Below are positions 1 through 20,000 of a stretch of DNA of 20,000 nucleotides, in pieces. Source of the stretch: Rozella allomycis CSF55 (taxonomy: Eukaryota); NCBI GenBank assembly GCA_000442015.1, contig KE561209.1:366390-386389 (forward strand). Reading direction: 5' to 3'. Made by a program: the position numbers and the translations under genes. Below the pieces are notes generated by a model. That model saw only the letters and a program-made list of their open reading frames with translations, was not told where the DNA came from and did no database searches. How positions within the stretch are numbered: the stretch's first letter is position 1; every line of letters begins with the position of its first letter.

Positions 1-837
1 AAAGTGTCCTTTACATAGTCTTCTTTGATGTTTGATTGTTGAAATAGCGGAAACAGAGAGCGAAAAGATTTAAAAATTTCATCTCCCAGATACGCCGGCG
101 GTACATAATGCGATTAAAGAGTTGGTAAACTTGTTGAATTTTAAAATTTTTTTTATANAGTTTTGTCACTTTTCACAATATATAACAATAACTTGAATTT
201 TATTCCCACGTATTCTTGTACTACTCTTTTTTGTATGACTCTATTCCAAGGCGTAACGTTGCTAACCTTTCAGATTGAAAATCACCTTCATTTCCTTTCT
301 ACACAGAATTATTGTTAGTCCGTGAAACCCCAATAGGCATAGCATCGAACATAAATATGTACAAAATAAAAATATAATATATACTACCTTGAAATCTCCA
401 AAGCGGTGTTGAAAAAAGGCGATGAAAGTAGATTATTTCAACTCTAACGACAATTTCAGTATTTTTTTTTTATATTTTAAATATATACAGTTATTTGAAT
501 AATCGTTTTTANTTGATCAATAAAAGGTTGAAATATTAAGAAGAATTCTTTTTTCTGATTTAATGGTGGAAAAATAACTCGAAAAAGGCTGTCGCACCGA
601 CACAATCTCAGATTGGAAAAGATGAGTCGTATAAAGAATGTTAATAATCAATAATAAATAAATTAGTTTATCTAAATAATTAATTTTTTATTGGTCGATT
701 CCAATTCCAAACTCCCTATCCCACGGAACATATGATTCCATAATATCTCATCAACAACTCAAACTGTAAGGATACCCTTACATAAGCATGTAACTCTTAG
801 ATTTATTTCTTACACTTTAACAAGACTAACTATTAAC

Positions 838-2355: not shown

Positions 2356-3297
2356 AAATCTTAAAAAGAAATTTATTGTTGCGAGTAAATCTCCTGCAGC
2401 TTCACCAATTATGTTTGTAAAATAGAAAGATAAATCTTTGAGACTTGTTGTAGATTACAGAAAATTGAATAATATAACCGTGAAAAATAGATATCCAATA
2501 CCACTTATTCAAAATTTAATAGATAACTTAAAAGGCTCAAAAATACTTACAAAATTGGATTTAAGAGGTGCTTGTAATTTAATAAGAGTTAAAAAATCAG
2601 ATCAATGGAAAACAGCATTTCGTACAAAGTATGGTCAATTTCAATACCAAGTAATGCCATTCGGATTATGTAACGCACCGTCCATTTTTCAAAATATGAT
2701 GAATAGTATTTTTCATGATTTATTAGATCAGTTTGTTGTTATTTATTTGGATGATATTTTGATATTTTCTAAAAATCTAGAAGAACATTCTCAACATGTT
2801 AAAATAGTTTTGCAAAAATTGAGAGAACATAATCTTTTTGCAAAACTGGGAAAGTGGTTTTTCCATGTCACAGAGGTTGATTTGTTAGGTTTTGATATTA
2901 ATACTAATGGTATTTCGATGCATAAGAATAAAGTTCAGTCAATTGAAAAATGGGAAGAACCAAAAAATATTAAACAGTTGCAAAGATTTTTGGGAGTCAC
3001 AAATTATAACAGAAAATTTATTTCTAATTACCCTAAAATTGCTGTACCATTGACCAATTTATTGAAGAAAAATATTGGAAAATGTAATTGGACAAATGAG
3101 TGTAAAAATGCATTTAAATTATTAAAATCAAAATTTATTAAAATGCCAATTTTGCAATTTCCAGATATGACTAAACCATTCATTGTTCAAACGAATGCTT
3201 CGGATTTTGCTCTGGGTGGCGTATTATTACAAACTGATTCTGAAAACATTCTACATCCAGTTGCTTAGCATTCCCGGAAATTCTCGTCTGCAGAGCT
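2322..3297 (+). pseudogene. Disabled pol (reverse transcriptase + partial RNase H)
   Basis: ATCA tandem duplication at 2322-2329 shifts frame; removing it restores QDKSRALKIYLDENLKKKF. In-frame TAG at 2423-2425 (FVK*KD) and 3266-3268 (HPVA*HSRKF). RNase H TDASD reads TNASD (AAT 3194-3196). Confidence 0.85.
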
Positions 3298-3307
3298 NNN
3301 NNNNNNN
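3298..3307. other. Assembly gap (10 N)
   Basis: Run of N; retroelement homology does not resume afterwards. Confidence 0.98.
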
Positions 3308-4366: not shown

Positions 4367-5085
4367 TCACCATTCACTATAGACAGCTTGATCGCACTGT
4401 GAGCCCTGTTTTCTTGTCGCGCCATAAAATATTTTTATCAAATATATATTGTTGAATGAAGTATTAATCCATGGCGTGTGATGCATAAGAGAACATTGAT
4501 CTTGTGAAATAACTATGTGCTTTAAATTAAATTGGTTTAATAGAGCAGCAATATTCCAAAAACAACTACGATTAGTCAACAGTGATTGATATACTCTCTG
4601 TCTTGTATTGTGACTAGAGCATAGCATTGATCATTTTGTGACAAAGCAGAATAAAGGGTATAGATAAATTTATCAAAAAACCAGGGATTGTAAAGTGTAT
4701 CGGAAGCAAATATAAATGATACTTTCTCTTGAATTTGTTCTGCCCAAACGATTGGTTTGATTTTATACTTCAAAATTGAGTTGTGGCGACACGAGGTTTC
4801 AATATTATCAAACCAAGATTTTTCTGGCAAGTCTGTTAATGTAACATTGGCACCGCATATTTTTTCTGCGACCATTGACACTAAACCTGTTCCAGAGCCC
4901 AACTAATCAATTTTTGTTTCATTATTTACTTCCAAAGTCTTAAACCCGGTAAGATCTAAATTTTTTGCGATATAGTTTGCGAGAATAATAGCGCAGGGCC
5001 ATGTGTAACTAGAGTAGTTTTCTGAAGAGCTTTCTAAAACAAAAAATGGCTTGTCCTGTATGACAATCTTTTTAAGATTTTTCAT
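4367..5085 (-). CDS. METTL23-like class I protein methyltransferase (Methyltransf_16 family), 3 exons
   Basis: YTWPCAIILA, LELGSGTGL after splicing, LTDL, ASDTLY. Introns 4903-4929 (27 nt) and 4566-4594 (29 nt), both GT-AG, give TIQDRDCFWNIAALL. The 3' end is less certain. Confidence 0.82.
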
Positions 5086-5624
5086 AAAGCCTAAAGGTGA
5101 AATGAGAATATAAAGCTAGCTCCTGGTTCTAAAAAATTAATGAGAAAAAGACAAAAGTATGTATTCTACTACCCTTCTTCGTTGAAGTCTTGATTAAATT
5201 ATTATCTTTTCTTATCGATTATTACGAGGAGACCATTAGCCTCTAAGCTCAAAAAGATTTAATTAAGATTTCCAATCAGCGATCAGCGATGTTTAATTTT
5301 AATTTTTAGATATCATTGTTGCACTCTAAATACTACAAGTGTGATTTTTTTCGATTTTCGCTCGTTAGAGAAATGACTGGTGACTACTAAATCGCAATTG
5401 TAAATAAATTAATTGACCGTTCATTACTATTACGGAATTCCTTTACAGTTTCGGCACCATGACCATCATTGAAAATTGACCACTTCTGAACTCTGACAAG
5501 ACTTGAAGTGGTGTATTTCCAAAATATTTCCTACTATGGCATTCTAAAGGCTTAAAATTATTAATTAACCATTTCATTATTGTGAGGCATCTTTCTAGTT
5601 TCTGGATCTCTGCGCCACATTGCC

Positions 5625-8153
5625 ATGATTCCTAATTATGCTGAACAAGAGTTGTGTGAACATATTAGAAAAGCACTTAATAATGAAGAAACAGCACCCA
5701 AGCAGAAACATGTGAGGGCCATAATAGTTTTCGCCTTTGATTACGGAACAAGTGGACCGTTTTGGAATATGTTAGGATTGTTACCTATATTTTCTGATGA
5801 AATAGTCTGCTTTAAAAGTCTTATAACTATTCATAAACTTGTCAGTTCCGGACCGCCGATCGTAAGGTTATTAAAAAGTTATAAAAGTGTATCAAGGATG
5901 CCATAAAGAACATTTCGATATTAGATAACTGTGATCGATATGCGTCTGAAGGATATATGGGCTATTCTGTTCTAATAAAGCTGCATGTTAAGTTTTTGAA
6001 AAAGAAATTAGAACTCCATAAAATCCATCCAGAGTTTACTGGATCGTTTGACTTTAAGGAATACATTGCCTTAAAAAGAGTTGATGATCCAAATGATGGG
6101 TAATTTATTTATTCCAACTTTTCAGTTATTTAACCATTAGTGAATTGATGGATTTGCAAGATTCCATTGAACAATTTCAGCACACAGTTTTCTCAAGTTT
6201 TAGGCCATCATCTAATAACGAATGTAGAATTTCATCTTTGGTTCCATTGATCGAAGAATCCTTTGGTATTTACCAATTCGTCACATCCTTGCTCAAGGCT
6301 ATGTTTAATAGTAATCAGTTGTAACAAGGAATATAGTTTTAAGCGACGATTGCGATGTTTTGTTGCCTTTAGTTGATAAATATAAAATTCAATTTACTGC
6401 TTTGAGAAAGTTTTACGACGAGTGTCGTAACATTCGCTTTCTGTCTACCCTTGTCAATATACCCCAGCTTCCTCAAGTAAATTCACGAATAAAATCTGTT
6501 AGAATCCTCCAGACTTTTCTAAATGTTCATCTCAGGCAATATCGAGAAGCGGTTCACAAAATTTGGTTGTTGCCCGGGAACCAGAAACAACCTTGGTTGA
6601 GACAACAGTAACTTATAATCATTTTCAGGAGCAACAAAACCAAGAGATGTCACAGCAAATTCAAACTTTGCTTCTGCAAAATGAGATGGGAAAGCAAGCA
6701 CTGCAGCAGTATCAACAACATCTCAATGACATGCAATTTCAAATACAGCGATATAATTCAATTTTAGTTGAAAAAGAATCTTCCTACATGCAATCTTTAA
6801 ATGCGGCAAATGAAGAAACATCAATGTGGAGAAATAAATTCGAAGGCATGTCTAAAATCTACCAGGGTTTAAGGGGCGAGCATTTAGAACTTTTACAGAA
6901 GTACACGAAATTATCACAATCAAGTGATAAAAAGGGTGAAATGAATCAAAAGGTTGAAGCTTTAAAAGCCGAATTAGAAAAGAAAAGTGTGGAATTGATT
7001 GACAAACAAGGGGCACTTGAAAGGCTTAGAAATGATCTTCAAGAAGAAAAGTCCCGCAACTCCAACTTTGTGATTAACACAAAGTCACATTTAGAACAAC
7101 TGGTGGCTTCATTGCAAAATAAGAATGAAAGTTTGTCGAATGAAATCGCATTAAAGGATATTGAAATAAAAAATCTTAAGAGTGATTTATTAATGATGAA
7201 TGAGAAGCTTGAAGTAAAAATTTCACATACTTTTAATTTAGGCGATGAAGCAAAACGCTGATAATGAAATCGCTTCCTTGAAAAATGTAATCAATTTTCT
7301 TTGTATTCACAAGGCGTTACAATTAGAAACTTTACAGACAAAGGAACTTCAAAATCGAGAAATGGTGCTAATGAACGAAATAGTTGATCTTAAAAGTAAA
7401 AATAATCAATAAATATTAAAAGATAAATTAGGCGATGAAAATAAATCAAAAGACCTGGATGCTGAAATGAAGGAAGCTTTTCTTATAGTTCAGAATGCAA
7501 TTGACAGGCTTGGAAGTCTAAAATCAGATGCCGGTTTTTTAATAAAGTTGGATAAAAATATCCATGAAAAAATCATTGAAACGACAATGAATTTAATGGA
7601 TTCTATTGCAAAATTAATATATGCAGCCACTTTAACCCAAAAGGAAATTGTAAGCCAGGGTAAAGACACCGCCAACCCCGATCAATTCTATAAAAAGAAT
7701 AGTCGATGGACTGATGGACTTATTTCCGCTGCCAAATCCGTGGCCCTTACCTGTAAATTTCTTGTAGAAGCCGCTGATGGCGTGCTGAATGGTACAAACG
7801 TTTTTGAAGAACTAGTGGTGGCTTCCCATGAAGTTACTGCCAGTACTAGTCAACTACTCTCTGCTTCTAGAGTCAAAGCTTATCCTAATAGTCAAGCATT
7901 GAAGCAATTAGAACAGGCTGCTAAACAAGTTTCTGAAGCAAACAAACTTCTTGTACAATCTGTAGATAACGTCAATGAAGAAGGTGATGTAACTAATGCC
8001 ATGAAATCTTTAAGCATGAAACAGTACAAAGTATTGGAAATGAAGCAACAGGTAGAAATCATGACTTTGGAAAAACACTTATCGGTTGCAAGAAAAAAAT
8101 TGACGGATATGAGAAAACTTTCTTATCACACCTCGGATGAAACCATTGAATAA
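5625..8153 (+). CDS. SLA2: Sla2/End4/HIP1 endocytic adaptor (ANTH + coiled coil + I/LWEQ talin-like), about 780 aa
   Basis: ETAPKQKHVR, DPNDGYLTISELMDLQD, FYKKNSRWTDGLISAAKSVA, ASRVKA, EMKQQVEIMTLEK. Introns 5862-5887, 6100-6125, 6311-6336, 6477-6502 (26 nt each), 7214-7241 (28), 7287-7313 (27, stop-free, uncertain) and 7396-7422 (27) give one continuous frame. Confidence 0.95.
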
Positions 8154-8347
8154 ATAATTTCTATTTCTACGCAATATAGTCGAGTTATCTCTTTTATTTC
8201 TTTTTTGTGATACCTACATGATGTAAACATGTCGACGGTGGCGCCAGTGCCATACAAGTGAATTTTAGATCATATTTTGCTCTAGTAAAATTTGAGACAA
8301 CATGAATTTGAAAAAATAATTCTTTTACAATTTATTAGAATCCAAAA

Positions 8348-9425
8348 CTATTTTCCCTTTGCGCTTTGCAGCATTTTGTCGACATGTGAATATTCAATAT
8401 TATATTTCTTAATGGCAGCCTATGAAATTAAAGGGCAGAAACTTACTTTCCAAATGTCGAAAGTGAAGCCAAAAACAAACTGTCTGTTATTTTGTTCCTC
8501 CAATTCTTCTAAATTCTGTTCATTGATGTAAACCATTAGTTCTTTGTTTTCTTCCTTTAAAGTCACTCTTTTCTCTTTCACCAGGAATGAAAAAAAGAAT
8601 AAAAGTTCAACTGATCTCCCAAACGAATTGGGATCGATCAAAAACTTGAAAAAATTTATTGGATTCTCTTGCTCCAGACATCTAAACAGAGAGAAAACCA
8701 TTTTGGTCGTTTCTGTTGTACTATTTACTAGGACGTCTTCCCTTGATAACTCTCTGGGTCTTTCAACTTCTGCTTTTAACTCGTTATTATTTCTTTTTCT
8801 TTCAATCTTCCTTTTTTCCTTTTTCTCTATTTCAAATGACCCAAGCCTGTTTATTATGAATCTAAATGTTACAATGAATTAAAGGTAAAAACACCACAAG
8901 TGGCATTGAGAGCCATTGCACCAACTGCCCTCCAATCGATTCTACCATGCGGTCGTAATTCTGGCTGTCGTGAAAATAAGTTTTTAACTTGATCTCTAAA
9001 GGTACCTAAATCTAACGGATGACGACCAAGTTGTAACTTTGACACTTTTTCAGCACTCAAATCGGCAGATATCATAAGCAACCTCGCATCTAATACTGCT
9101 TCGGATGTTCCGCGGACTATTTTTAATAAATGATTGAAATACTGTGCTGGGATAATTGGTTTGCCCGCTCAACAACTTCACTTAGTAGCTATTATCAAAT
9201 ATGCAACACTTTTACATTCGAATCAGCCTTCAATGCCTCGGCTTTATTTTCTTCTAGAATTTTTGCCATGTTTCGGTACTGGTTTCTTACAAATCTCTTT
9301 ACACCTATGGACTGATTAGGATCGTACAACTGAGTTTCCTGTATTTTTTGTTTTTTGGTTTGGCTATTTAAGATGTTATTTCGTTCTCTTTCCGAATAGT
9401 TTTCCTCTTCTTCCATCTGTTGCAT
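8348..9425 (-). CDS. NSE4: Nse4/EID3 kleisin subunit of the Smc5/6 complex
   Basis: TSEAVLDARLL, ETTKMV, FLIDPNSFGRSVELLFFFSFLVK, WKAAIKKYNI. Introns 9189-9215 (27), 9117-9142 (26), 8847-8872 (26), 8420-8446 (27). Confidence 0.88.
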
Positions 9426-9540
9426 TTTTACAAGAAAAAGAAAATGTGAAATATCTATTTTAACGTTTACATCCGAAAACCTGTAAAGAGGGATAAAATA
9501 GATGCAAAAATATAAAAAATGAAATGTTCAAATGTATCAT

Positions 9541-9929
9541 TTATTGTTGAATGGTAACCTCAACATCAACTCCAGTTTCAATTTTGAATGATGTGATTTG
9601 TCTGACAATTTCAGTTGGGCTTTCCAAATCAATAACACGCTTGTGAATGCGCATTTCATAACGGTCCCAAGTCTTGGATCCTTCACCATTTGGTGTTTTT
9701 CTTGTAGTAATACGTAGAGTTTTAGTTGGCATGCGAACTGGTCCTTTGACTGGAAGTTCTTTTTCTTTTGCACGTTGAATTAACTCGGAGCAAACTAAAT
9801 TTACAAAAAAAATCACAAAATACCTTTCTCAACTTTGCTTACATCACGAGAAGTAAGGGTGACACGAATACGATGGATTTTTAATGGAGCAGATTCTTCT
9901 TGTCCAGCTTTAGCAACTTTGGAAGCCAT
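9541..9929 (-). CDS. RPS20: 40S ribosomal protein S20 (uS10), 119 aa
   Basis: [51 protein letters not shown]. One 29-nt GT-AG intron at 9795-9823. Confidence 0.98.
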
Positions 9930-10485
9930 TTTTCAAAAGGGTTTCTAGAGGGGCTTGGTTTTTTTTCAAATGCTTGAAAATTCCGAAAATTCGAAAACAG
10001 CGTCTGAGTAAGAAAAGAAAAAAATGTTGTATTTTATAAACCTCACGATTTTTAGTGCTTTTAGAAAACTTTCGGACAAACTTTGAACTAGATAATTTTA
10101 TGATGGCACATTAATTTACAACCATTTGATGGTTCACTTAATATTTCTAATCATGATTTGGCTAATATTATGTCAAATTGAAGCCCGAGACCGCAAAACA
10201 AATTTTCTTTGATATCGCGCTGAGTGAATATTCATAAATCGAGCTTTAGCAAATGGCCATACAAATAAGTCACCAAAATAAAACATAAATAACAATGTTA
10301 TTCTCTCTATTTAGTATTTATCAATGTCAGTATAAACTCTTTCAACAATGGCCCTCATTTTTGTTTAGAAAAGAAAAGTAATACGTGACTCCGTAAGATT
10401 GACTTTGTAATAAAATAATATTTATGTTCGACATCATTAATTTTACTTTATAGACGCCTCCAATAAACGAAATTTGCACCCCTGC

Positions 10486-13315
10486 ATGACTGTAAAGGAA
10501 GCCTCGTTATTTCCTAAAACCCAGAGAAGACATAATATAGATGTTGATAACGTGACAATATTGGATAATTTTGTAATATTTTTTAGTAAATCACAAAGGG
10601 AACACTGTCTAATCTGTTTGATATTGCAAAGAGGGGGCCGTTTGTTGGGAATGGAATAGTATCGGCAGAAAACAAGGCCAAATATCCAAATCAATGTGGG
10701 GCTAAATTTGAGTTTAAAATATACCAGTATTATATTACGTACTACGCGGAGACACCTTTGAAACCTGATGTATGGTTGAGAGGCGATCATTGTTATTTTA
10801 GGATTATGGTAAGCGGTACATAGTTTAGAGATTAGAATCCTTCATTTAAATATAAAGCTACGTATGAAGAATGCTGGAAGATGTTTCAATTTACTTCATT
10901 GTCTTTTGAATATTTGAAGGAAAACAAGGGCAAGTCTTTTGATTGGAAGAATTATTTTGAGACGGTAAGTCATTTTTGGAATGTTTAAAAGCTTATTATA
11001 AAGTTAGAGTTTAAAAGCCAAGAGTCTTTGATTGATTTTTTGTTTGAAGTTTCATCATTTTTTATGAATCAGTTGAGTCAAATGGCAGAGTATGAAAGAG
11101 ACTGTGGCGATCATATTGTTGTAAAATTGATGCAAAAAAGTCTTCAAACAAAATCCAATCAATTTAAGGGCTTGTTGGATTTAGAGATTGACCTCCCCCT
11201 TAAGCCCCTTGTAGCGTACACGAAAGCATTAAAGCCACAATGTATACCTCCATTGATAACGATTGTATTTTAAATGAGTTTTCGTAACAAAGATTAATGA
11301 TTTGAATTATCGTAATGGTTATTTCAAGTGCCCTGCATGCTATCAATCGTTTGACACTAGTGTAGATGGTGTTATTGATAATATTCTTTTACCGCATATA
11401 CAACAGCACATGAAATCACTTTGCGGCGATTTGAAAACGGAAGAGGAGTGGCTTGGTATCTACAATTCTTCGGCGGCAAAAATAAAGAAGCATGAAAAAT
11501 GTGACAAGGAGCATTATTTTTCACGATCTTTTCCCAGCAGAAATGTGATCAAGTCAAACTTTGGGGTAATGTGATGTTTTTTTGATGTTAGTTAATCAAA
11601 GGTGTGAAAGAAGAAAAGGTTTGTTTTATAGAGCCAGAAGTGGAGGAGATTAAAGTGAAAGAAGAGGTTTATTCAGAATTTGATGATTTTGTGGATATTC
11701 CCCTGATGGAGCCTTTAAATAATGTTGAAAATAGGGTATTTTATTTTGATTTAAAAGATAGCCTGTACGTGAGACCAGGGTTAATAATCAACCTTTGAAG
11801 AAGAAAAGGGCCAAGAGCGACAAGCCTGAATCGTCTAAAATAAATAATGCGGATTTAAAGCAAGAAAATGAAGACTATAGATTAGAGATAGAAATTCCAT
11901 CGATGAATTTGGAAATAAGTGAAATGACCCTTGATGAAGAGAGCGAAGAAGAAAAAGTTTTTAAAAAACGCAGAATTAGAAATAGAAAAGACAAAAGACG
12001 AAGAAACAGAAAAGAAAAAGAATTTCTTCCAGAGATTTTGACGTTTGCGAGAACCCTTGCGAATGATCTTTTGACTTTTTTGAAAACATTTGGCAATGAC
12101 AATCGAAGTGTTCCATTTGAAGGAAGCAAAGAAAAGGAGCAAATTTGTTTTAATGTTATGTGTTATTTCGGTCTGGGGATTGTAGAAGCAAAGGAGGTGT
12201 ATGACACTGTATTGAAATCTGATTATGAATTGATTGAAGAGTTTATAACGCTCGCAGAAGATTGTGGAATATTGGAAGAGATTTCTTTATTTTGTTTGAG
12301 ACCAAAAAGAGTAAAAACTATTTCCGAAATTTCCAATAAATTTTCTTTGGATGAATTGGCAGAAAAGATTGGAAGAAGCAACAAAAATAATGTAGAAATG
12401 AAAACAAGACAATCTAGAAATAAAAGAAATAAACAAATTAATCAAAATAGCACGAAGAGTGAAAATGTTTCAACTGAAGATTTAAGGAAGGCTATTGAGA
12501 TTTATAAGAAGAAATTTAACGTTGAGATTTCTATTGAAGATCTTTTTGAAATTTTAGAAAATTTAAACGAAGCAGAAAAAGAAGCAGAAGTAGAAGTAGA
12601 AGAAGTAAAGGGAAAGAGCTTTAAAGTAAATGAAGAAAACTTTGATGTAAATGAAAACTTTAAAGCAAATGGAGAAATCGTTGAAGAGATGCGAGAAAAC
12701 TTTAAAGACAAGAGGGAAGAAGAAGAAATACCAAAGGAAGAGAGGAGAGAAATCTTTGAAACAAAGGCAGAAGAAAGAGAAGACGAAGATTTAGAATTGG
12801 AAGAAACAAAAATTGAAGATGAAAAAAATGATCTGGAAATTGAAATCTTTGATGAAAATAAAAAAATAGATCTACATTTGGCATTGGATGATTTCATTAT
12901 TGAAGACGATCCAGAAGATCTTTTAATTGAAGACCCTGAACCTCTAAGGGACCCTGAACCTCAACTTTTCTTAGAACCTTCGAGGGACCCTGAACCTCAA
13001 ATATCTACAAGGTCTAAGCCTCCACTATTAATAGAAACATCAAAATCCAAAGTAGAAAATTTGATTGACGTTGTGGAAATAGAAGCGGACAGTTTTGCAT
13101 CAATTTTGTCAGAATATGAAAATTCAAACGCCCCTCTAAGAAATGTTTCAAATCAAAATTCAAATTCTTTTTGGAGTTGCAAAACATGCAATAAAATGCG
13201 TCAAGGTGCAAAATGTTTATTTTGTGGAAGTTTATGGGAATGTCCCAAATGTCTTTTAAATCACTCGATGAATTCTTCATGTCCGAAAAATCAGAAAATA
13301 ATTTACATTGAATAA
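10486..13315 (+). CDS. About 889-aa putative chromatin protein: N-terminal DNMT1-RFD/RFTS-like domain, C2H2-like finger, long acidic/basic region, C-terminal Cys-rich fingers
   Basis: Introns 10573-10598 (26), 10809-10835 (27), 10965-10991 (27), 11265-11292 (28), 11566-11591 (26) and 11736-11761 (26) join the fragments into one frame. The domain call is by eye from YITYY..PDVWLRGDHCYFRIMNPSFKYKATY..SFFMNQL. The start codon is uncertain. Confidence 0.7.
12932..13000 (+). repeat. Imperfect coding repeat GACCCTGAACCTC x3 (DPEP motifs)
   Basis: Three copies of gaccctgaacctc encoding EDPEPLRDPEPQLFLEPSRDPEPQ. Confidence 0.85.
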
Positions 13316-13382
13316 AGGGTAATTTTAAAGACTAAAAGATTTAAAATTTATAATCTAAAATATTAAAGATTCTTTTATTTAT

Positions 13383-16341
13383 TTAATTCCACCATTGGAA
13401 ATCTTTCGATGATGGCAACGGGAGAATTCTAACAGGCTCATCAAAATCTATCAAGGAAATTTCATTTGTGATTTTTCCAATTTCACTCTTTTCAGAATTC
13501 ATGCTTCTTCTTAATTCATTTCGAAGTCTTTCTTTCTTTTCCTTGTCTATCAATAAAACCTTAATTAAAAATGTCGACTTTACAGGCTTATGATCCGATA
13601 GTCTCAATTCTGCTCTTGAATACCCTTGTTGCACAATCTTTATTAAATACATCAATCCTCTCTTACATTCTGCCCCTTAAATAAAATGCGATCAGTCCAC
13701 GCTGGAATTCTCTGCTTCTCGCTAGTGTCGTATTCATCAGTCCCATTGTCATATTTGTACGTTGGATTAAAATTGATTTCTCCTTCAATAAACCCTTTAA
13801 ATGCATTTCCCTGTTTTAATTGATTATTTAACTTTCATCATGTCAAACATTGCTTACCTGGTCCTGGCGAAATAGTTCACTCAAATTTCCTTTTGATATC
13901 AAGTCTTTGGTTTGCCAGATTCCTAAATCAATTCGATAATTAAAATCTCCCAGCCAAATCACATTGTCGTGCACTTCAATTTTCTTTCCATGCTTAAACA
14001 CCAAGCCATCGGATATCGTCATGTAATCTCTATTCCTTTCCTCCACATTTCCATGTCCAGCTGCCAAATGCGCACAAATAAAACAAAACGACGAATCATA
14101 ATAATCAAATCTAATGCCAATGCCACCTTTATTCCCTGCCATCCCCTTTAACCCGGTCTATCATCTTATTCATACACACTTACTTTCTTTATTCCCACCT
14201 CTACATTTCGAAGATTTTTTATTATTGATAACTTTGCAAAAATACACAATGACGCGCCAACTAGCTGTCCGGATGTTACAAGGGTATATTTTTCACCATC
14301 CGCATTCAGTGACTTTTGTATTTGTCTTTCCCACAAAAGTCGCTTATCTGGATCGGTCATCATGATCTTTCTTTGAAACATCCTTGAATCTTACCTGCGC
14401 TGGAGTCAATTCCACAATCTCCTGAAATCCAATCACATACAAATCAGGATGGCTTTCTAAAACAGCAATCAAAAAATAGACTACCAGATGATAACCAGGG
14501 TGAAAGGCTTTCATGATTTATTGAAGGGCTCTTTCCATTCACATTCCACGTAGCAACAAAGACCGAAAGTGGAAAGTATGTTGAATACTCATTAATGCGA
14601 TTGTCCAATTCAATTCTAATCGAATTCAAAATAGGATTAAAAATAAAAACCGACGAATTTGGAATATTTCCTAAAAGTATATCAATGGTAGTCTGCTTAG
14701 ATTTATCAGTAAAATTGTTAACGTAAAATCGTTGTGCTGATTTTTTAGCGTCATCCATGAGTCCTGTAACTTATTTTAAAAACTCATTACCGGCAATGGT
14801 GCGCTTTCCAGTCCGCGTAAATCCAGACTTTAGGGCACCCGTCCCAGTGTATATTCGACTCAACTCATCGCCATTGTCCGCCCAAATGTCATTGAAGACT
14901 GGATGATCACTAAACTTGGCAGGAATTAACTTTAAACTCAAAAAATTATCTAAAACATATTTAACAATTGCCGTTTGCACAACATTTGTCCTTTTTAAAA
15001 ATACAGACAGGGGTACCTGTCCAAACAATCCAAGCAATTCACTCTCATAACGCCCCTTTGCATCATTAAAAGTTCATTTGTCTTCAAATCAATCACAGAG
15101 TACATTTGCTGCTGCAAAGCTACTTCTATCATTGTTAGCAAAACGCTGAGTCGATCGTAGCTTGTTCCTTTCATGTGATAGTGAAAATCAAACGCCGTTC
15201 TAGTTATCGGCATTCCACAGTTTTCTGTTTGAATTCTATATGCATTTCCCAACAATTCTTCTGCGTTCCCATCTCTCTGGGACAAAAGATCAATGATATG
15301 CACATTATCGTATTGATTTATTAAGTCTTCGAAATGACGATCAAAAGCGGGCTGTGTTGCCGCTATCGATCTGGTTATCTGAATTTTATGACCGCCAACC
15401 TGCAACCCTTGTTGTTCCCAGAATACAAAAATTAGAGGCAAAGTTATACTTTACCTGGCACTGATCCTCTTAAAATCACAAAAGAAAACAATTGGTCTGG
15501 TTGATGCTGGAAAACAACCTCCGTCTCCACAAAATTCGCAACATTCCCATCATCGTCAATCCCTCGTACATTGTACCTAGTCCCAGCTCTTTTGCTACTA
15601 AGCCTAGAAAAAACGGCTAAAAATGATTTTTCTCCGTTTATTTTTAAATCACAAACTTCAACAAATCCTTGAATGGCCAATACAAACAATGCACTTGAAT
15701 CTATATATCTTTTCTCTTCTTCCGCCAATTGGGCTCTAAATTTTATTATTTGTTTTAAAATAGATTTGTTCCACACCTTCATTGTAGTTTATTTTTTGTA
15801 TTACGAATCTATCGTCAAATGTTTCGAATAGGTGTCCCTGGGACCTGGTTCTGTTGCAAGAATTTAACGTGAGGTCAAATGAAGGCGAGAAATAAAATGA
15901 TCCCGAACTCATGTATTTTATCAAATCTTGGCAGGGATGAATAATCTTTTGTTCTTCATTTTGAATGGAATCAAAAGACACCATATCATATTTAGTGGAA
16001 TTAATCGAAATACATTCAACAGCCGTGATTCTAAATAATGGGTGTGACAAAAATGATCCAACTCTTTCTACGCTCTGTATACTGATTAAAAAATCATCTA
16101 GCAATAACTTTCATCCACATTATTCACCTTCATTAATTTTAACCATCCCCAGAATTCCGAAACATACTTTTGAGCCTGTAGGTACCTTTATGTTGTCTGT
16201 CACACAAAGCTCGGCATTTACACATTGTATATTTGTTTTATATGGTTTTATAGTTAGCAAAAATGGATTCGATGGGTCAGTACAATGAATAGACACTACT
16301 CTCTGTTTACCACCTTCAATTGTAATGTAGAAATTGGACAT
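13383..16341 (-). CDS. Synaptojanin-like phosphoinositide phosphatase (Sac1 domain + inositol 5-phosphatase; Inp52/Inp53 family), about 893 aa
   Basis: RAGTRYNVRGIDDDGNVANFVETE, RGSVPVFWEQ, RVNCLDCLDRTN, GFQEIVEL, GNKGG, WLGDFNYRI, PTYKYD, PAWTDRIL, SDHKPV. Introns 16098-16127, 15777-15804, 15426-15454 (GT-TG), 14991-15016, 14764-14790, 14457-14484, 14367-14394, 14158-14183, 13832-13857, 13638-13666. Confidence 0.95.
15426..15454 (-). other. Putative non-canonical GT-TG intron, 29 nt
   Basis: GTAAAGTATAACTTTGCCTCTAATTTTTG; removal restores the Sac1 motif RGSVPVFWEQ. Confidence 0.7.
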
Positions 16342-16480
16342 AACCCTGCGCCACCCCTCTTACTATTAAATAGAAATAAAAATAGATCATATTAATGTTA
16401 ATGTAAATTACTAAATAACAAAAAATGTTTATTCTAGTCATGTACTATTTACTAAAATTTTTGCAGTAAAACCCTAGTTC

Positions 16481-17044
16481 ATGAGAAAAGATTTGAAAGA
16501 ACAAGCTATAGCTGAAATCGGACACTTGCTGTTAAAAGGGTGGACTATGACAGATAAAAACTGTTCAATTTGTTCGGTAATATATTTATGTAACATAAAG
16601 TTTCGACTGTCCTTATGCGTGAAAAAGGAAGCGAAAAAACGAAATGCTGTTTCTGTGATTTAAAAAATCAAGAGTCTTCAGCTTTTCATAACATGGTCGA
16701 AAATGTCACGGCCAGCTGTGAGGTTTTGAATGAAATTTGTCCAACTTGTGAAGGAACGGTATAATCACAAATTTTAAGTTTACAAGAACTCCCTTTTAAA
16801 AAATGATGATAAAAGTTTACTTTGCTTGCAATGCAACCAGAAATATTACCTTGAAATTCCGAATAAACCACTTGATCAAGAAAACGAGTCCAGTGAAATT
16901 AATTCCATTCAGACTGAGGTTTTAAGAAACTTAGCTAATGCCCTCAAAGCTTCGAGAGGACTTCTTGACAAGAACCGTGCATTAGGATTCGATCTAATTA
17001 ATGAACTATCATTAACCATACATAAAGTAATAAGCATTGAATAA
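16481..17044 (+). CDS. SSSCA1/ZNRD2 (Auto_anti-p27)-like protein with two zinc-ribbon repeats, about 168 aa
   Basis: IGHLLLKGWTMTDKNCSICSTVLMREK..CCFC and VLNEICPTC..LL..CLQC. Introns 16577-16605 (29, GT-CG; alternative 16572-16600) and 16759-16786 (28). Confidence 0.8.
16577..16605 (+). other. Putative non-canonical GT-CG intron, 29 nt
   Basis: GTAATATATTTATGTAACATAAAGTTTCG; removal keeps CxxC and enters the conserved TVLM..CCFC frame. Confidence 0.55.
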
Positions 17045-17050
17045 AAAAGA

Positions 17051-17066
17051 GTTTTATTAATAAAAC
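17051..17066. terminator. Perfect 16-bp palindrome with AATAAA on both strands, in the 23-bp spacer between convergent genes
   Basis: GTTTTATTAATAAAAC is its own reverse complement; flanking stops at 17044 (+) and 17068 (-). Confidence 0.65.
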
Positions 17067-17067
17067 G

Positions 17068-19324
17068 CTATGCTAAATACTTGTAAAATTGCCTATTTAA
17101 GATATTCAAAGTTTGATACTTGTTTTCTTCATCTCTTTCAATGAATTCTTTTTCAATTAGATTTTCAATCCGCTTTTTAATAACGGAAGGCTCTGGGTGG
17201 AACCTTGATGAAAGGATTTTAATCACTGAAGAGACAAGAATTGTGTGTTCAACTTTACGTCTTGATTTCATTATCCTCACTATGGCTGCATCAATCGTGA
17301 CGTTAAGGATACATACATATTATATGATAGAACTAATAAACAACAAAAAGGATATTGATATCTTCGATCTTCCTCGACTTGTTCAATTGAATGTTCTGCG
17401 TTGGGCACCTCAGAGTTCGATGGTTTTATTTGCAGTAAAGGAACCTTAAACTTGAAAGCTTTGTGTTTAAAAGAATTGTTAAAAGTAAAAATATCAGAAT
17501 TCCTTAAAAAATTGTCGCCGGGGGTCTTTTGTAGAATCTTAAATCTTCCCAGTGCTAGGGAAAGTATATGCCGTTCCATTTCATGAAGAGTTATATTCAA
17601 GGATTTTGAAATTTGATCAGCATTTAATGTTTCCGCCTCCTGAAATAACAAAAGTATAAACATTTGGATTGTAGAGACGTTGACTTCATGTCGACTCTCT
17701 AAAAAGTTTATTACAAGATCCGCTTGACCCTTTCAAGTGAATTTATGAAATTTACTAAATTAAATTGCCAGTTTAGTCTTCTGCCATTGTGTTTGAGCAA
17801 GTATGATTTCTCAAATACATCCAACTGTTCTTTAAGCTTTAAAGGTAAATTAATCGAGGATTTAGTAGATTTGAGAGGCCAGAAGCTCGTTGTCAATATG
17901 ATTGGTTGTAGCGACTTTTCTTTGTAATCTGCGGATAAGGCTGCGTCATTGATCATTCCCTCCATTTTCTGGGTGTATTGAAGGCCACATTCACTCTTTT
18001 TTAATTGGTATAAATGATAGATACTTTTAATCTCACCACGAAACTTTGAATTAACGAAATATCTTTTCTCTGAATCAGCTGCTTTGCCAATAGTTTCCGA
18101 AACAAAAGATCAAAAACATCCTTATCGGGTATAAAACGAAAAATAATAATTAATTTATCAAAAATATTTTCGAATTCTTCTATATTTTCTCTGAATATTT
18201 TGTCTAGATACGAAATCAGGTGTGAACATGCATTAGACTCATTCTTTATGCAGTCTCCAAACGCCTATCGATAAAACAGTGCTAAAGTACCTGATTCATA
18301 CATTTCCATATATCTTTATTGTTTACAAAGCACTCTATTTGAACAAATGATAGATACTCATAAAAATTTATCATTTCATTCATCCAATTACTTTTTTCCG
18401 CTGTAAAATTAACAATAAATGTTCGAACGTAACTATTTAGAACCTCCATACAGCCACAAGGGTTGAATAAATTGTAAAACAACGTCAGGCATTCATAGTC
18501 TTTGTGTGCTAGCCTTTTCGAAATTCCTCCATTCAACTCGCATATCTTAGAGGAGGGTTGTTTGATAAAGATATCGTAAACTAAATCAATAAAGTTCTTT
18601 TGCGAAATTTCAGGAAAAAACATGACAATCCTTTCTTGTTCCCCTTCAAGTCGTGCTTTAACTTTCGCCAAGTACATTTTAGTATCATCGAATTTCATCA
18701 AAATTTCCTGTTCTTGAACAAAATAATCTCTTGTTTTCTCCATGAAATAGTCGTAGTCTATGGACTCCAACTCGTTCATCATTGTAAATATTTTAGACAA
18801 TGTGTCACGCTCAATTATATTCCCATTTCTTTCTTTATTTATTTCTTCAATTAAAGATCCATTTATTTTTGTTAATTGATTGCTAATGACAGTCTCCTTG
18901 AAGCAATCCAAGGCTAATTCCATGGTCTCCCTTATTCTCCTTTGTCTACAATACCCATTATTCATGTAAAGGCACACATCCGATACCATAGACACTGATA
19001 GCTTAAAGTTTTGCCATTCCTTTGACAAGTGTGCCAAATACTGATATCCTTGAAAAATTTCAATCCTCGCACCGATTTCTGAACACTTCAACATGAAGTA
19101 TTCTTCTATCTTTCCATAAAATACTTCTGCTTCTGACATTAAGCATAAGTTATAGCAATATCGATATAATTTTTCAAACGAAAGTTGAGATGTTTTTTGC
19201 CCAAATATTTTTTCAAAGGAGCTTACCAAACAATCCATCATATCTTTGGAAGACAGATTTTCATTATTCTACATTTTTTCTTACATATAGCGCTTACAAA
19301 TCTTGAAAATGGTTTTAGCCCCAT
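17068..19324 (-). CDS. Cullin, most similar by eye to CUL3 (divergent), about 686 aa
   Basis: LSFEKLYRYCYNL, FRFIPDKDVF, LKSECGLQYTQKMEGMIND, HNGRRLNWQ, neddylation motif IDAAIVRIMKSRR, IKKRIENLIEKEFIERD..YKYLA. Introns 19269-19297, 18265-18290, 17996-18024, 17730-17755, 17297-17355 (AT-AC), 17093-17119. Confidence 0.93.
17297..17355 (-). other. U12-type (minor spliceosome) AT-AC intron, 59 nt
   Basis: 5' ATATCCTTT, branch site TCCTTAAC (17302-17309, minus strand), 3' AC; phase-2 removal gives EEDRRYQ-IDAAIVRIMK. Confidence 0.93.
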
Positions 19325-19591
19325 TTTGGAATTTACTTAAAAGACAAACTAAAATCTTCAAAATTCAAACTTCGAAATATAATTATGAAAAATAATACTC
19401 GTGGCTATTTGCCGAATTTAGAACAATTAAATTCTTTTTCACGCATTAATTTTTCAGGCAGTTCATCCGGTTTTTCGTAAATTTTCTAGGTAATTTTGAA
19501 ACCGATTTTTACCTAAAACTTTGTTTCGGAAAAATCGACATTAGGAAATTTGAACTGAATTTGAACCCTTTTTTTGGAAATATCGAAAAAA

Positions 19592-19964
19592 ATGTCGCCA
19601 CCTGATTTGATACCTACCCATAAAGCTATCGCAGATAAATTCGCGTAATGTAGAAAAAGATTACTTATTCAGTGGTATAAATAGTTTAACCTTTTACAAA
19701 CGAGACGATTACGAAGCACTTCGCTTTGAGTGCCTGCGGGAAATGGACTGCGATTTGAAACCGCATAGCCAAGAATTTCGTGAGCTAGATAAAAAAGTTA
19801 AAGGTAACTTGCTAACGAAACCTCTTTCAGGTCTCGTAAGTCCACGGAAGATTGCAAATCAGACTTCCGAGTCGATTTGGGCTAGAGCGGATGCTGATGT
19901 GAGAGCAGTCGTTGATAAAGACGTTTTTGATTCTATTGCAGTCGCGGATATGGATACCAAATAA
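19592..19964 (+). CDS. Small hypothetical protein (about 105-114 aa), divergent from the cullin
   Basis: ATG at 19592 plus a 28-nt GT-AG intron (19645-19672) joins the 19743-19964 ORF frame. Possible stop-free 27-nt intron at 19804-19830. AATAAA overlaps the stop. No recognisable family. Confidence 0.55.
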
Positions 19965-20000
19965 ACATGTCTCGCTTGATTAAAGAATCGAATGAGGAAA

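What the first reader, a model, noticed from the sequence alone, without database searches (positions are those of the whole stretch)
4566..19830. Near-fixed-length 26-30 nt introns with a floor at 26: candidate ruler-type 3' splice-site selection
Seen: by my reconstruction 39 of 40 introns are 26 (14), 27 (10), 28 (7), 29 (7) or 30 (1) nt, and none is shorter. Donors are almost all GTA. About 14 acceptors are AAG preceded by A-rich sequence. There is no pyrimidine tract, and a CTAAY branch motif appears only sporadically. AGs below the floor are skipped: position 24 in 14367-14394, 22 in 11736-11761, 20 in 16098-16127, 24 in 16577-16605. Known: tiny introns occur in ciliates, nucleomorphs and microsporidia. 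Inference: the acceptor is set mainly by distance from the donor, which would imply a modified U2/U2AF/SF1 recognition system in an intron-rich genome.
Basis: partly seen in the sequence, partly recalled or inferred. Interest (0 to 1): 0.85.

Follow-up and report, generated by a model that had tools for sequence, protein, structure and literature searches.

The report
Tiny 26-30 nt introns in Rozella
The window comes from the parasitic fungus Rozella allomycis, whose genes are interrupted by many real introns only 26-30 bases long; such ultra-short introns are known from other lineages, but two of them here seem to end without the usual AG signal.

Summary
The window is Rozella allomycis CSF55 nuclear DNA (100% identity to a named NCBI protein). 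Frame bookkeeping, Pfam profile continuity and protein alignments support them. The public gene model P0001 uses 9 of the 10 introns that I place in its gene.

The 59-nt outlier is a textbook U12-type AT-AC intron. Two 29-nt introns need non-AG acceptors, TG and CG, to keep conserved residues; the public model instead uses a 47-nt GT-AG intron that deletes VFWEQQ. All 37 GT-AG short introns use the first AG that ends 26 nt or more from the donor.

High intron density, ultra-short length, GTA donors and no branch signature are already described for Paramecium, a nucleomorph, dicyemids and myxobolids (PMC2483917, PMC13644364). Short Rozella introns are mentioned in passing in PMC6349667. A distance rule is plausible but unproven, because no RNA data and no whole genome were available. 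Verdict: a new member of a known kind, of moderate interest.

The parts
4566..4594 (-). 29-nt intron, lysine-methyltransferase-like gene; GTAT..GTAG; ACTAAT with A at position 23
   Evidence: Listed. Joins ORF 4576-4902 (phase 2) to ORF 4367-4630 (hand frame check). Pfam Methyltransf_16 on the upstream exon.
4903..4929 (-). 27-nt intron, same gene; its last three bases TAG are an in-frame stop
   Evidence: Listed. Joins ..TLE to LGSGTGL.. in one frame (hand check).
5862..5887 (+). 26-nt intron 1 of the HIP1/Sla2-like gene; AG ending at position 17 skipped
   Evidence: Listed; frame 0 to frame 2 (hand). ANTH profile 4-69, then 86-144.
6100..6125 (+). 26-nt intron 2, phase 2; T-rich 3' half
   Evidence: Listed. 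ANTH profile 144, then 149.
6311..6336 (+). 26-nt intron 3, phase 1; AGs ending at 8 and 18 skipped
   Evidence: Listed. ANTH profile 209, then 219.
6477..6502 (+). 26-nt intron 4, phase 0
   Evidence: Listed; frame 0 to frame 2 (hand).
7214..7241 (+). 28-nt intron 5, phase 0
   Evidence: Listed; frame 2 to frame 0 (hand).
7287..7313 (+). 27-nt candidate intron 6; in frame and without a stop, so unproven
   Evidence: Listed. Motif only; no homology check was possible in this coiled-coil region.
7396..7422 (+). 27-nt intron 7, phase 1; removes an in-frame TAA
   Evidence: Listed. I_LWEQ domain in the following exon.
8420..8446 (-). 27-nt intron, Nse4-like gene (last intron)
   Evidence: Listed. 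The Nse4_C profile stops at 76 of 89 at the last residue of exon 8447-8845.
8847..8872 (-). 26-nt intron, Nse4-like gene, phase 2
   Evidence: Listed; frame 0 to frame 1 (hand).
9117..9142 (-). 26-nt intron, Nse4-like gene, phase 1; follows a 46-nt exon (9143-9188)
   Evidence: Listed; hand frame check.
9189..9215 (-). 27-nt intron, Nse4-like gene, phase 0; carries an in-frame TGA
   Evidence: Listed; hand frame check.
9795..9823 (-). 29-nt intron, ribosomal protein S20 gene, phase 1; T-rich
   Evidence: Listed. In-frame stop if retained. Ribosomal_S10 profile 16-98 starts at residue 1 of the next exon.
10573..10598 (+). 26-nt intron 1 of an unnamed long gene (10486-13315)
   Evidence: Listed; phase 0, frame 1 to frame 0 (hand).
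10809..10835 (+). 27-nt intron 2; AGs ending at 15, 20 and 22 skipped
   Evidence: Listed; contains an in-frame TAG.
10965..10991 (+). 27-nt intron 3
   Evidence: Listed; contains an in-frame TAA.
11265..11292 (+). 28-nt intron 4; CGTAAC with A at position 23
   Evidence: Listed; frame 0 to frame 1 (hand).
11566..11591 (+). 26-nt intron 5; T-rich
   Evidence: Listed; frame 1 to frame 0 (hand).
11736..11761 (+). 26-nt intron 6; AG ending at 22 skipped
   Evidence: Listed; frame 0 to frame 2 (hand).
13638..13666 (-). 29-nt intron 10 of the synaptojanin-like (Sac + 5-phosphatase) gene
   Evidence: Listed. Used by public model P0001. Junction is gap-free against Glomus P0011.
13832..13857 (-). 26-nt intron 9
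   Evidence: Listed; P0001; gap-free.
14158..14183 (-). 26-nt intron 8; AG ending at 19 skipped
   Evidence: Listed; P0001; gap-free.
14367..14394 (-). 28-nt intron 7; AAAG ending at 24 skipped for AAAG ending at 28
   Evidence: Listed; P0001; gap-free.
14457..14484 (-). 28-nt intron 6; T-rich
   Evidence: Listed; P0001. A 4-residue gap lies nearby in a variable region.
14764..14790 (-). 27-nt intron 5; AG ending at 21 skipped
   Evidence: Listed; P0001; gap-free.
14991..15016 (-). 26-nt intron 4
   Evidence: Listed; P0001; gap-free.
15426..15454 (-). 29-nt intron 3 with a non-AG acceptor (GTAAAG...CTAAT...TTTTTG); the public model uses 15408-15454 (47 nt, GT-AG) instead
   Evidence: P0001 lacks VFWEQQ against Glomus (6-residue gap). 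The window encodes VFWEQQGLQV in frame directly after 15426. 4 of 7 homologues read RGSVP followed at once by [VL]FWEQ.
15777..15804 (-). 28-nt intron 2
   Evidence: Listed; P0001; gap-free.
16098..16127 (-). 30-nt intron 1; the only GTG donor; AG ending at 20 skipped
   Evidence: P0001 reads KINE then DDFL; gap-free.
16577..16605 (+). 29-nt intron with a non-AG acceptor (GTAATA...AAAGTTTCG), autoantigen-p27-like zinc-ribbon gene; AG ending at 24 skipped
   Evidence: Pfam Auto_anti-p27 profile 2-21 of 40 covers exon-1 residues 12-31, including the Cys codon 16571-16573. The canonical alternative 16572-16600 replaces that Cys. The 24-nt option runs into an early stop (hand). No public protein holds this exon.
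16759..16786 (+). 28-nt intron 2 of the same gene; AG ending at 20 skipped
   Evidence: Listed; frame 1 to frame 2 (hand).
17093..17119 (-). 27-nt intron in the cullin-4-like gene, phase 2; in frame and without a stop
   Evidence: Listed. Spliced, 11 residues follow ERD and the protein ends YKYLA; unspliced, 20 follow. The Cullin-3 chains run only 7 residues past the aligned part (hand reading); that CUL4-type C-termini also have 11 is recalled, not from a call.
17297..17355 (-). 59-nt U12-type AT-AC intron: 5' ATATCCTTT, TCCTTAAC box, 3' AC
   Evidence: The pattern occurs once and in 0 of 200 shuffles. It is the only junction that gives ..DRRYQ then IDAAIVRIMK, as in human CUL4B DRQYQIDAAIVRIMK.
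17730..17755 (-). 26-nt intron, cullin gene
   Evidence: Listed. Cullin profile 530, then 531, exact.
17996..18024 (-). 29-nt intron, cullin gene
   Evidence: Listed. Cullin profile 420 (10 residues before the exon end), then 433.
18265..18290 (-). 26-nt intron, cullin gene
   Evidence: Listed. Cullin profile 341, then 342.
19269..19297 (-). 29-nt intron after a 9-codon first exon, cullin gene; AG ending at 18 skipped
   Evidence: Listed; ends in an in-frame TAG (hand).
19645..19672 (+). 28-nt intron, small unnamed gene (ATG at 19592), phase 2
   Evidence: Listed; frame 2 to frame 0 (hand).
19804..19830 (+). 27-nt candidate intron; in frame and without a stop; GCTAAC plus CCTCTTTCAG
   Evidence: Listed; motif only.

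Best explanation
These are genuine major-spliceosome (U2-type) introns of Rozella allomycis. They belong to the known 'short-intron lineage' pattern: many introns per gene, extreme and narrow length, a donor reduced to GTA(A), and no recognisable branch box or pyrimidine tract in most. The most likely working rule has three parts. The donor is fixed by GTA. A branch adenosine is taken from the A-rich 3' half without a strict motif. The second step uses the first AG that lies at least about 26 nt from the donor, because a shorter intron cannot span the catalytic core. Shown here: that the introns exist, their lengths, the donor and acceptor statistics, and that every AG intron obeys 'first AG at 26 or more'. 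Inferred: that the lower limit is steric, where the branch sites lie, and that two introns without an AG in the 26-30 window are cut at a YG at position 29.
For: Organism and public model. Forty introns join all exon frames of nine genes (hand work). Pfam profile positions run on across 7 junctions. Of the 10 junctions of P0001, 8 are gap-free against a Glomus homologue. GTA-N21-AG (26 nt) occurs 34 times against 20.3 expected, and 0 of 200 shuffles reach 34. By hand count, all 37 GT-AG short introns use the first AG ending at 26 or more; skipped AGs end at 24, 22, 22, 21, 20, 20, 20, 19, 18, 18, 17 and lower. The same pattern is described for Paramecium, the B. natans nucleomorph and dicyemids (PMC2483917, passages read) and for myxobolids and Dicyema (PMC13644364, main text read). 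That paper reports conserved U2 and U2AF, so ordinary machinery can process such introns.
Against: No RNA evidence: the one run offered held nothing from this locus. The sample is 39 introns from one 15-kb stretch. The expected number of AGs at positions 26 to L-2 of the longer introns is only about 1, so 'first AG at 26 or more' is weakly tested. TAAY-like boxes, where present, sit 5-8 nt before the 3' end in about seven introns, which also fits branch-anchored choice. Raw motif counts show no excess at 28-29 nt. An intron-like 21-nt stretch (6608-6628) cannot be excluded. A fungal intron median as low as 29 bp is reported (PMC8042348, passage; Table S7 not seen). If that figure is Rozella's, it implies a longer genome-wide tail than this window shows.
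Confidence: 0.6

Rival explanations
1. Branch-anchored choice. A weak branch site (TAAY-like, or any A) is picked first. The acceptor is the first AG, or a G, about 5-8 nt downstream. The 26-nt floor then follows from a minimum donor-to-branch distance plus a minimum branch-to-acceptor distance, and not from a ruler reading from the donor.
For: By hand reading, in five of the 28-29 nt introns with a TAAY-like box the branch A is at position 23-24, that is 5-6 nt before the 3' end: 4566-4594, 15426-15454, 11265-11292, 7214-7241, 13638-13666. Both non-AG introns have an A at position 23 and end in a G at 29. In 11566-11591 the only A in the 3' half apart from the acceptor's own A is 6 nt from the end. 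The U12-type intron also has its box only 6-7 nt from its 3' end. PMC13644364 reports weak A's whose distance from the AG grows with intron length in myxobolids and Dicyema.
Against: Other box-like motifs lie 8-15 nt from the end (19804-19830, 6311-6336, 16577-16605, 6100-6125). A is present 6 nt before the end in only 7 of the 14 26-nt introns, which is about the base frequency of A. With A-rich introns any assignment is loose.
Confidence: 0.3
2. The two non-AG acceptors are not real. They are assembly errors or recent mutations, and the cell uses the nearest canonical GT-AG sites (47 nt at 15408-15454; 29 nt at 16572-16600) or makes defective products.
For: The public model P0001 uses the 47-nt GT-AG intron. 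The window is draft quality, with single Ns and a 10-N gap. Curators of rozellid and microsporidian genes report multiple sequencing or assembly errors (PMC13393502, passage read). In the 47-nt version CTAAT would be followed by the first AG downstream, which is a normal fungal layout.
Against: Six codons identical to the Glomus protein (VFWEQQ) lie intact and in frame inside the would-be 47-nt intron. Two independent hits on the -2 base of an acceptor among 40 introns is unlikely for random error. Both sites keep the final G, both introns are 29 nt, and both have GTAA donors. The canonical option in the p27 gene destroys a zinc-binding Cys that is covered by the Pfam match.
Confidence: 0.35
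3. The short interruptions are artefacts (frameshift errors or pseudogene decay) and not introns.
For: None beyond the draft state of the assembly.
Against: All 40 interruptions have GT (or AT) at the start. 38 of the 39 short ones start GTA, 37 of the 39 end AG, and all fall in a 5-nt length range. Their removal gives conserved proteins.
Confidence: 0.02

Closest known systems
Ultra-short introns of 'short-intron lineages': Paramecium, Bigelowiella natans nucleomorph, dicyemids (PMC2483917, section 15 passage) and myxobolid myxozoans (PMC13644364)
   Same: High intron density, length below 30 nt in a narrow band, a 5' site reduced to GT(A), no branch-point signature, little or no pyrimidine tract, and an A-rich 3' part.
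   Different: The host here is a fungus (Cryptomycota), which is not named among the short-intron lineages in either paper. AAG acceptors are frequent (14 of 39). Two candidate non-AG acceptors occur. I found no analysis of Rozella intron length in the open library.
Microsporidian (Encephalitozoon cuniculi) short introns
   Same: Sister lineage of Rozella. Introns of a few tens of nt, with the branch close to the 3' end.
   Different: E. cuniculi has very few introns and a strong CTAAYTT box (PMC2483917, Table 1 passage). Rozella has about 2.5 introns per kb (PMC8476143, passage), and CTAAY occurs in only 3 of 39 here. PMC6349667 (passage) already noted that two ~30-nt putative Rozella S23 introns lack the E. 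cuniculi motifs.
Stentor coeruleus 15-16 nt introns (as cited in PMC13644364; otherwise recalled)
   Same: Length is so constrained that position largely fixes the acceptor, while the spliceosome appears conventional.
   Different: Stentor's band is 2 nt wide and much shorter. Rozella's window is 26-30 nt, and an AG is still chosen within it.
U12-type (minor spliceosome) AT-AC introns
   Same: Intron 17297-17355 has ATATCCTT at the 5' end, a TCCTTAAC box and an AC end.
   Different: The box lies only 6-7 nt from the 3' end, whereas the usual distance is about 10-15 nt (recalled). No open paper in the library pairs Rozella with U12 or with minor introns.

Membership tests
U2-type spliceosomal introns, ultra-short class | GT at the 5' end and AG at the 3' end | tested here: met
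   39 of 39 short introns start GT (38 GTA, 1 GTG). 37 of 39 end AG; the other 2 end TG and CG (hand reading).
U2-type spliceosomal introns, ultra-short class | Removal restores one open frame and a conserved protein | tested here: met
   Frames join for the 36 short introns that shift the frame or carry an in-frame stop, and for the U12-type one. Pfam profile continuity. 8 of 10 junctions gap-free against Glomus. 3 in-frame stopless introns are untestable by frame.
U2-type spliceosomal introns, ultra-short class | Narrow length band below about 30 nt | tested here: met
   39 of 40 introns are 26-30 nt (hand tally). 26-nt motif excess: 34 against 20.3 expected, 0 of 200 shuffles.
U2-type spliceosomal introns, ultra-short class | Absent from mature mRNA | not testable with these tools
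   No RNA holder was listed. Laying the one labelled run gave only pieces of about 20 nt.
Intron-poor-lineage introns with a strong branch box at a set distance (E. cuniculi, Giardia, Trichomonas type) | WCTRAYN box in nearly all introns | tested here: not met
   CTAAY occurs in 3 of 39 (4566-4594, 15426-15454, 19804-19830), by hand reading.
Tiny introns policed by translation (Paramecium type; recalled) | Deficit of 3n introns that lack an in-frame stop | tested here: inconclusive
   11 of 39 are 3n. 8 of those 11 carry an in-frame stop and 3 do not. The sample is too small.
U12-type introns | 5' RTATCCTT, TCCTTRAY box near the 3' end, AT-AC or GT-AG ends | tested here: met
   The combined pattern occurs once, at the junction that homology requires, and in 0 of 200 shuffles.
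U12-type introns | U11, U12, U4atac and U6atac snRNAs and minor-specific proteins in the genome | not testable with these tools
   No whole genome is held. Rfam found nothing in the window.
Ruler-type (AG-independent, distance-defined) 3' site selection | The acceptor position is predicted by distance from the donor, even without an AG | tested here: inconclusive
   Two homology-supported non-AG ends, both at 29 nt. But length varies from 26 to 30 nt, and there is neither RNA evidence nor read-level evidence.

The most novel reading that the evidence does not exclude
In Rozella allomycis the major spliceosome sets the 3' splice site chiefly by distance, within a 26-30 nt window from the donor or about 6 nt beyond a branch A. 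The AG is then only a preference. When no AG lies in the window, a YG at position 29 is used, as at 15426-15454 (TG) and 16577-16605 (CG). That would be a distance-defined acceptor in a culturable fungal parasite that also keeps a minor spliceosome. It would also mean that canonical-only gene callers systematically mis-model a few percent of its genes.
Probability: 0.3. Interest if true: 0.75.

Novelty: new member of a known kind. Interest (0 to 1): 0.5.

Why it matters
How introns shorter than 30 nt are recognised is stated to be an open question in the newest paper on the subject (PMC13644364). Rozella is a fungus that can be grown on Allomyces. It is sister to the microsporidia, which have nearly lost splicing, and it has about 2.5 introns per kb. 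That makes it a practical system for asking what the minimal intron is.

The window gives two concrete test cases in which a distance model and an AG-scanning model predict different mRNAs: 29 nt against 47 nt at 15426, and Cys against Phe at 16571-16573. It also shows that the public model of a conserved phosphatase probably lacks six conserved residues as a result. The U12-type intron suggests that Rozella kept the minor spliceosome, which matters for when that machinery was lost on the way to microsporidia.

Tried and rejected
1. Whole genome: none is held. No genome-wide length histogram and no search for snRNAs, U2AF or SF1 could be made.
2. Python: the script machine was lost at the first script. 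All frame checks, tallies and AG positions were done by hand and may carry small slips.
3. RNA evidence: no RNA holder was listed. The one run with the same species label, when laid on 4500-20000, gave only six pieces of 18-24 nt and no joints.
5. My first guess of a dicyemid or myxobolid origin, based on PMC13644364, was rejected once named Rozella.
6. I first rejected 17093-17119 as an intron through a phase slip, then reinstated it: spliced, the C-terminus after ERD is 11 residues long.
7. 17286-17312 (27 nt, GTATCC..GCAG) and 15400-15426 (27 nt) are decoys that break the frame. The canonical 59-nt GT-AG option 17286-17344 loses the conserved IDAA.
8. PDB search with the Sac exon aligned only from residue 35 and could not settle the junction.
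9. Searches for the public model or homologues of the p27-like gene found nothing (in the PDB). The HMMER scan of 1.84 billion representatives returned 3 repeat proteins and no p27 relatives. Short peptides gave no Pfam hit.
10. A metagenome scan for relatives of the Sac exon found none.
11. Rfam at gathering thresholds: 0 hits in the window.
12. James et al. 2013, the Rozella genome paper, is not held. Supplements were not seen (the S9 logos of PMC13644364; Table S7 of PMC8042348). They may hold Rozella intron statistics or positional logos that bear on novelty.

Full report
WHAT THE WINDOW IS. The window is AT-rich eukaryotic DNA (GC 0.28-0.37) that uses the standard genetic code. An exon of the large minus-strand gene is 100% identical to an 887-aa NCBI protein named 'DNase I-like protein [Rozella allomycis CSF55]' (P0001). 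The source is therefore the cryptomycotan parasite Rozella allomycis. My first guess, a dicyemid or a myxobolid (prompted by PMC13644364), was wrong.

Pfam names the genes:
- A broken Ty3/gypsy element (736-3265).
- A Methyltransf_16 gene (minus strand, 4370-5085).
- A HIP1/Sla2-type gene with ANTH and I_LWEQ domains (5625-8153).
- An Nse4 gene (minus strand).
- Ribosomal protein S20 (minus strand).
- A long unnamed gene (10486-13315).
- A synaptojanin-like gene with Sac and 5-phosphatase domains (minus strand, 13383-16341).
- A small gene with the autoantigen-p27 zinc ribbon (16481-17044).
- A cullin-4-like gene (minus strand, 17068-19324).
- A small unnamed gene starting at 19592.

No whole genome was held. 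The script machine was lost at the first script. No RNA run holds the locus. Every frame check, tally and AG position below is hand work.

CHECK OF THE OBSERVATION. For each gene I chained the stop-to-stop reading frames through GT..AG candidates and checked codon phase.

Independent support:
- The public model P0001 uses 9 of the 10 introns that I place in its gene.
- P0001 aligned to a Glomus homologue is gap-free at 8 of 10 junctions, has a 4-residue gap in a variable stretch at one junction, and a 6-residue gap at one.
- Pfam profile positions run on across junctions. For Cullin they read 4-341 | 342-420 | 433-530 | 531-620. For ANTH they read 4-69 | 86-144 | 149-209 | 219-261. Nse4_C breaks off at 76 of 89 exactly at an exon end. 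Ribosomal_S10 resumes at residue 1 of exon 2.

Three 27-nt introns are in frame and carry no stop (7287-7313, 17093-17119, 19804-19830). Only 17093-17119 has homology support: spliced, 11 residues follow ERD, against 20 if it is retained. Among the 11 introns whose length is a multiple of three, 8 carry an in-frame stop.

Motif counts of GTA-N-AG against 200 shuffles show an excess at 26 nt (34 against 20.3 expected; 0 of 200 shuffles reach 34) and a marginal one at 27 nt (29 against 20.9; 19 of 200). There is no excess at 24, 25, 28 or 29 nt, and a deficit at 30 nt (9 against 20.9). The longer classes therefore rest on frame and homology only.

An intron-like 21-nt in-frame stretch at 6608-6628 (seen within one search match) cannot be excluded as a shorter intron.

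SIGNALS. Donors: GTA in 38 of 39 and GTG in 1 (GTAA 27, GTAT 8, GTAC 2, GTAG 1). Acceptors: TAG 18, AAG 14, CAG 5, GAG 0, TG 1, CG 1. CTAAY occurs in 3 of 39. Looser TAAY-like boxes put the candidate branch A at positions 12, 14, 17, 18, 19, 23, 23, 23, 23 and 24 from the donor, so its position from the 5' end is not fixed. Most introns are A-rich in the 3' half, and a few have T runs.

Every one of the 37 GT-AG short introns uses the first AG that ends at position 26 or later. Skipped AGs end at 24, 22, 22, 21, 20, 20, 20, 19, 18, 18, 17 and lower. None ends at 23 or 25. The rule is only weakly tested, because the longer introns offer about 24 positions at which an earlier AG at 26 or beyond could occur, and only about one such AG would be expected by chance.

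(1) The outlier is a U12-type intron. Human CUL4B reads DRQYQIDAAIVRIMK. The window has ..EDRRYQ at the end of one frame and IDAAIVRIMK.. in the next. The only junction that joins them removes 17297-17355 on the minus strand. That stretch begins ATATCCTTT, contains TCCTTAAC and ends AC. The pattern ATATCCTT-N(20-50)-TCCTTAAC occurs once in the window and in none of 200 shuffles. A canonical GT-AG alternative of the same length would replace the conserved IDAA. No paper in the open library pairs Rozella with U12 or with minor introns.

(2) Intron 15426-15454 (29 nt) ends in TG. P0001 uses a 47-nt GT-AG intron (15408-15454) and so lacks VFWEQQ, which is exactly the 6-residue gap. The window encodes VFWEQQGLQV, identical to Glomus, in frame directly after 15426. 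In alignment A1, 4 of 7 homologues read RGSVP followed at once by [VL]FWEQ; one has an insert and two diverge. Six intact conserved codons inside a supposed intron are very unlikely unless they are exonic, or were exonic until very recently.

(3) Intron 16577-16605 (29 nt) ends in CG. Pfam's Auto_anti-p27 match covers exon-1 residues 12-31, up to and including the second Cys of the first CxxC. The canonical alternative 16572-16600 turns that Cys into Phe. The 24-nt GT-AG option runs into an early stop. No public protein contains this exon, so the gene seems to be unannotated. Both odd introns have GTAA donors, an A at position 23 and a final G at 29.

MECHANISM. The best-supported reading is ordinary U2-type splicing in a lineage that has shrunk its introns to the smallest size its spliceosome can handle. 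GTA fixes the 5' end, an unspecialised A serves as the branch, and the first AG beyond about 26 nt is used. I put 0.6 on a distance threshold being the main determinant.

The main rival, at 0.3, is branch anchoring. In five of the 28-29 nt introns with a TAAY-like box, the branch A lies 5-6 nt before the 3' end. Both non-AG introns have an A at position 23. Even the U12-type box lies only 6-7 nt from its 3' end. Against this rival, other boxes lie 8-15 nt from the end, and A at -6 is no commoner than the background (7 of the 14 26-nt introns).

The two non-AG ends may still be assembly errors or fresh mutations (0.35). The assembly is a draft, and curators report errors in rozellid assemblies (PMC13393502, passage read).

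Myxobolids with 22-27 nt introns are reported to keep a conserved U2 branch-pairing region and U2AF1/2 (PMC13644364, main text read).

COMPARISON WITH WHAT IS KNOWN. Irimia and Roy (PMC2483917, passages read) described this pattern for the three shortest-intron genomes then known (Paramecium, the B. natans nucleomorph and dicyemids): high intron density, a donor restricted to GT(A) and no branch signature. They contrasted it with intron-poor lineages such as E. cuniculi, which have a strong CTAAYTT box. PMC13644364 (main text read) adds myxobolids and Dicyema. It reports weak A's whose distance from the AG grows with intron length, and states that recognition remains to be worked out.

For Rozella I found only remarks in passing:
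- Two ~30-nt putative S23 introns that lack the microsporidian motifs (PMC6349667, passages).
- A density of 2.53 introns per kb (PMC8476143, passages).
- A fungal intron median as low as 29 bp in a set that includes Rozella (PMC8042348, passage; Table S7 not seen).

Searches found no dedicated analysis. The genome paper is not held and supplements were closed, so I cannot say that the length distribution is unpublished.

VERDICT. It is a new, under-described member of a known kind of intron system, not a new kind. The distance idea is reasonable, and two concrete loci now sharpen it, because there the distance model and the AG-scanning model predict different mRNAs. It remains unproven without RNA data. 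Interest 0.5.

Noticed in passing
window 17297-17355 (minus strand): A textbook U12-type AT-AC intron (ATATCCTTT ... TCCTTAAC ... AC, 59 nt) in the cullin-4-like gene. It implies that Rozella allomycis keeps a minor spliceosome. No open paper in the library pairs Rozella with U12.
   Followed up: partly
window 15408-15454 (minus strand); protein P0001: The public gene model of the synaptojanin-like phosphatase uses a 47-nt GT-AG intron and so lacks the conserved VFWEQQ of the Sac domain. The DNA encodes those six residues intact.
   Followed up: yes
window 16481-17044 (plus strand): A small gene with the autoantigen-p27 zinc ribbon has no matching protein of 91 aa or more in the protein collection. 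It is probably unannotated because its first intron lacks a usable canonical acceptor.
   Followed up: partly
window 736-3268 (plus strand): A Ty3/gypsy retrotransposon remnant. Gag, zinc knuckle and protease lie at 736-2352, and RT plus RNase H at 2426-3265. It is interrupted by stops or a frame change near 2353-2425 and cut by a 10-N assembly gap at 3298-3307.
   Followed up: partly
window 6608-6628 (plus strand): A 21-nt in-frame stretch, GTAAC...TTTTCAG, without a stop, in the linker region of the HIP1/Sla2-like gene. It looks like an intron but would lie below the 26-nt floor. It is undecidable without RNA.
   Followed up: no
window 9143-9188 (minus strand): A 46-nt internal exon of the Nse4-like gene, flanked by a 27-nt and a 26-nt intron. 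Very short exons between tiny introns argue for intron definition rather than exon definition.
   Followed up: no
window 17286-17312 and 15400-15426 (minus strand): Two perfect-looking 27-nt GTA..CAG decoys lie beside the real non-canonical junctions. Both break the reading frame and could mislead motif-based intron calling.
   Followed up: yes
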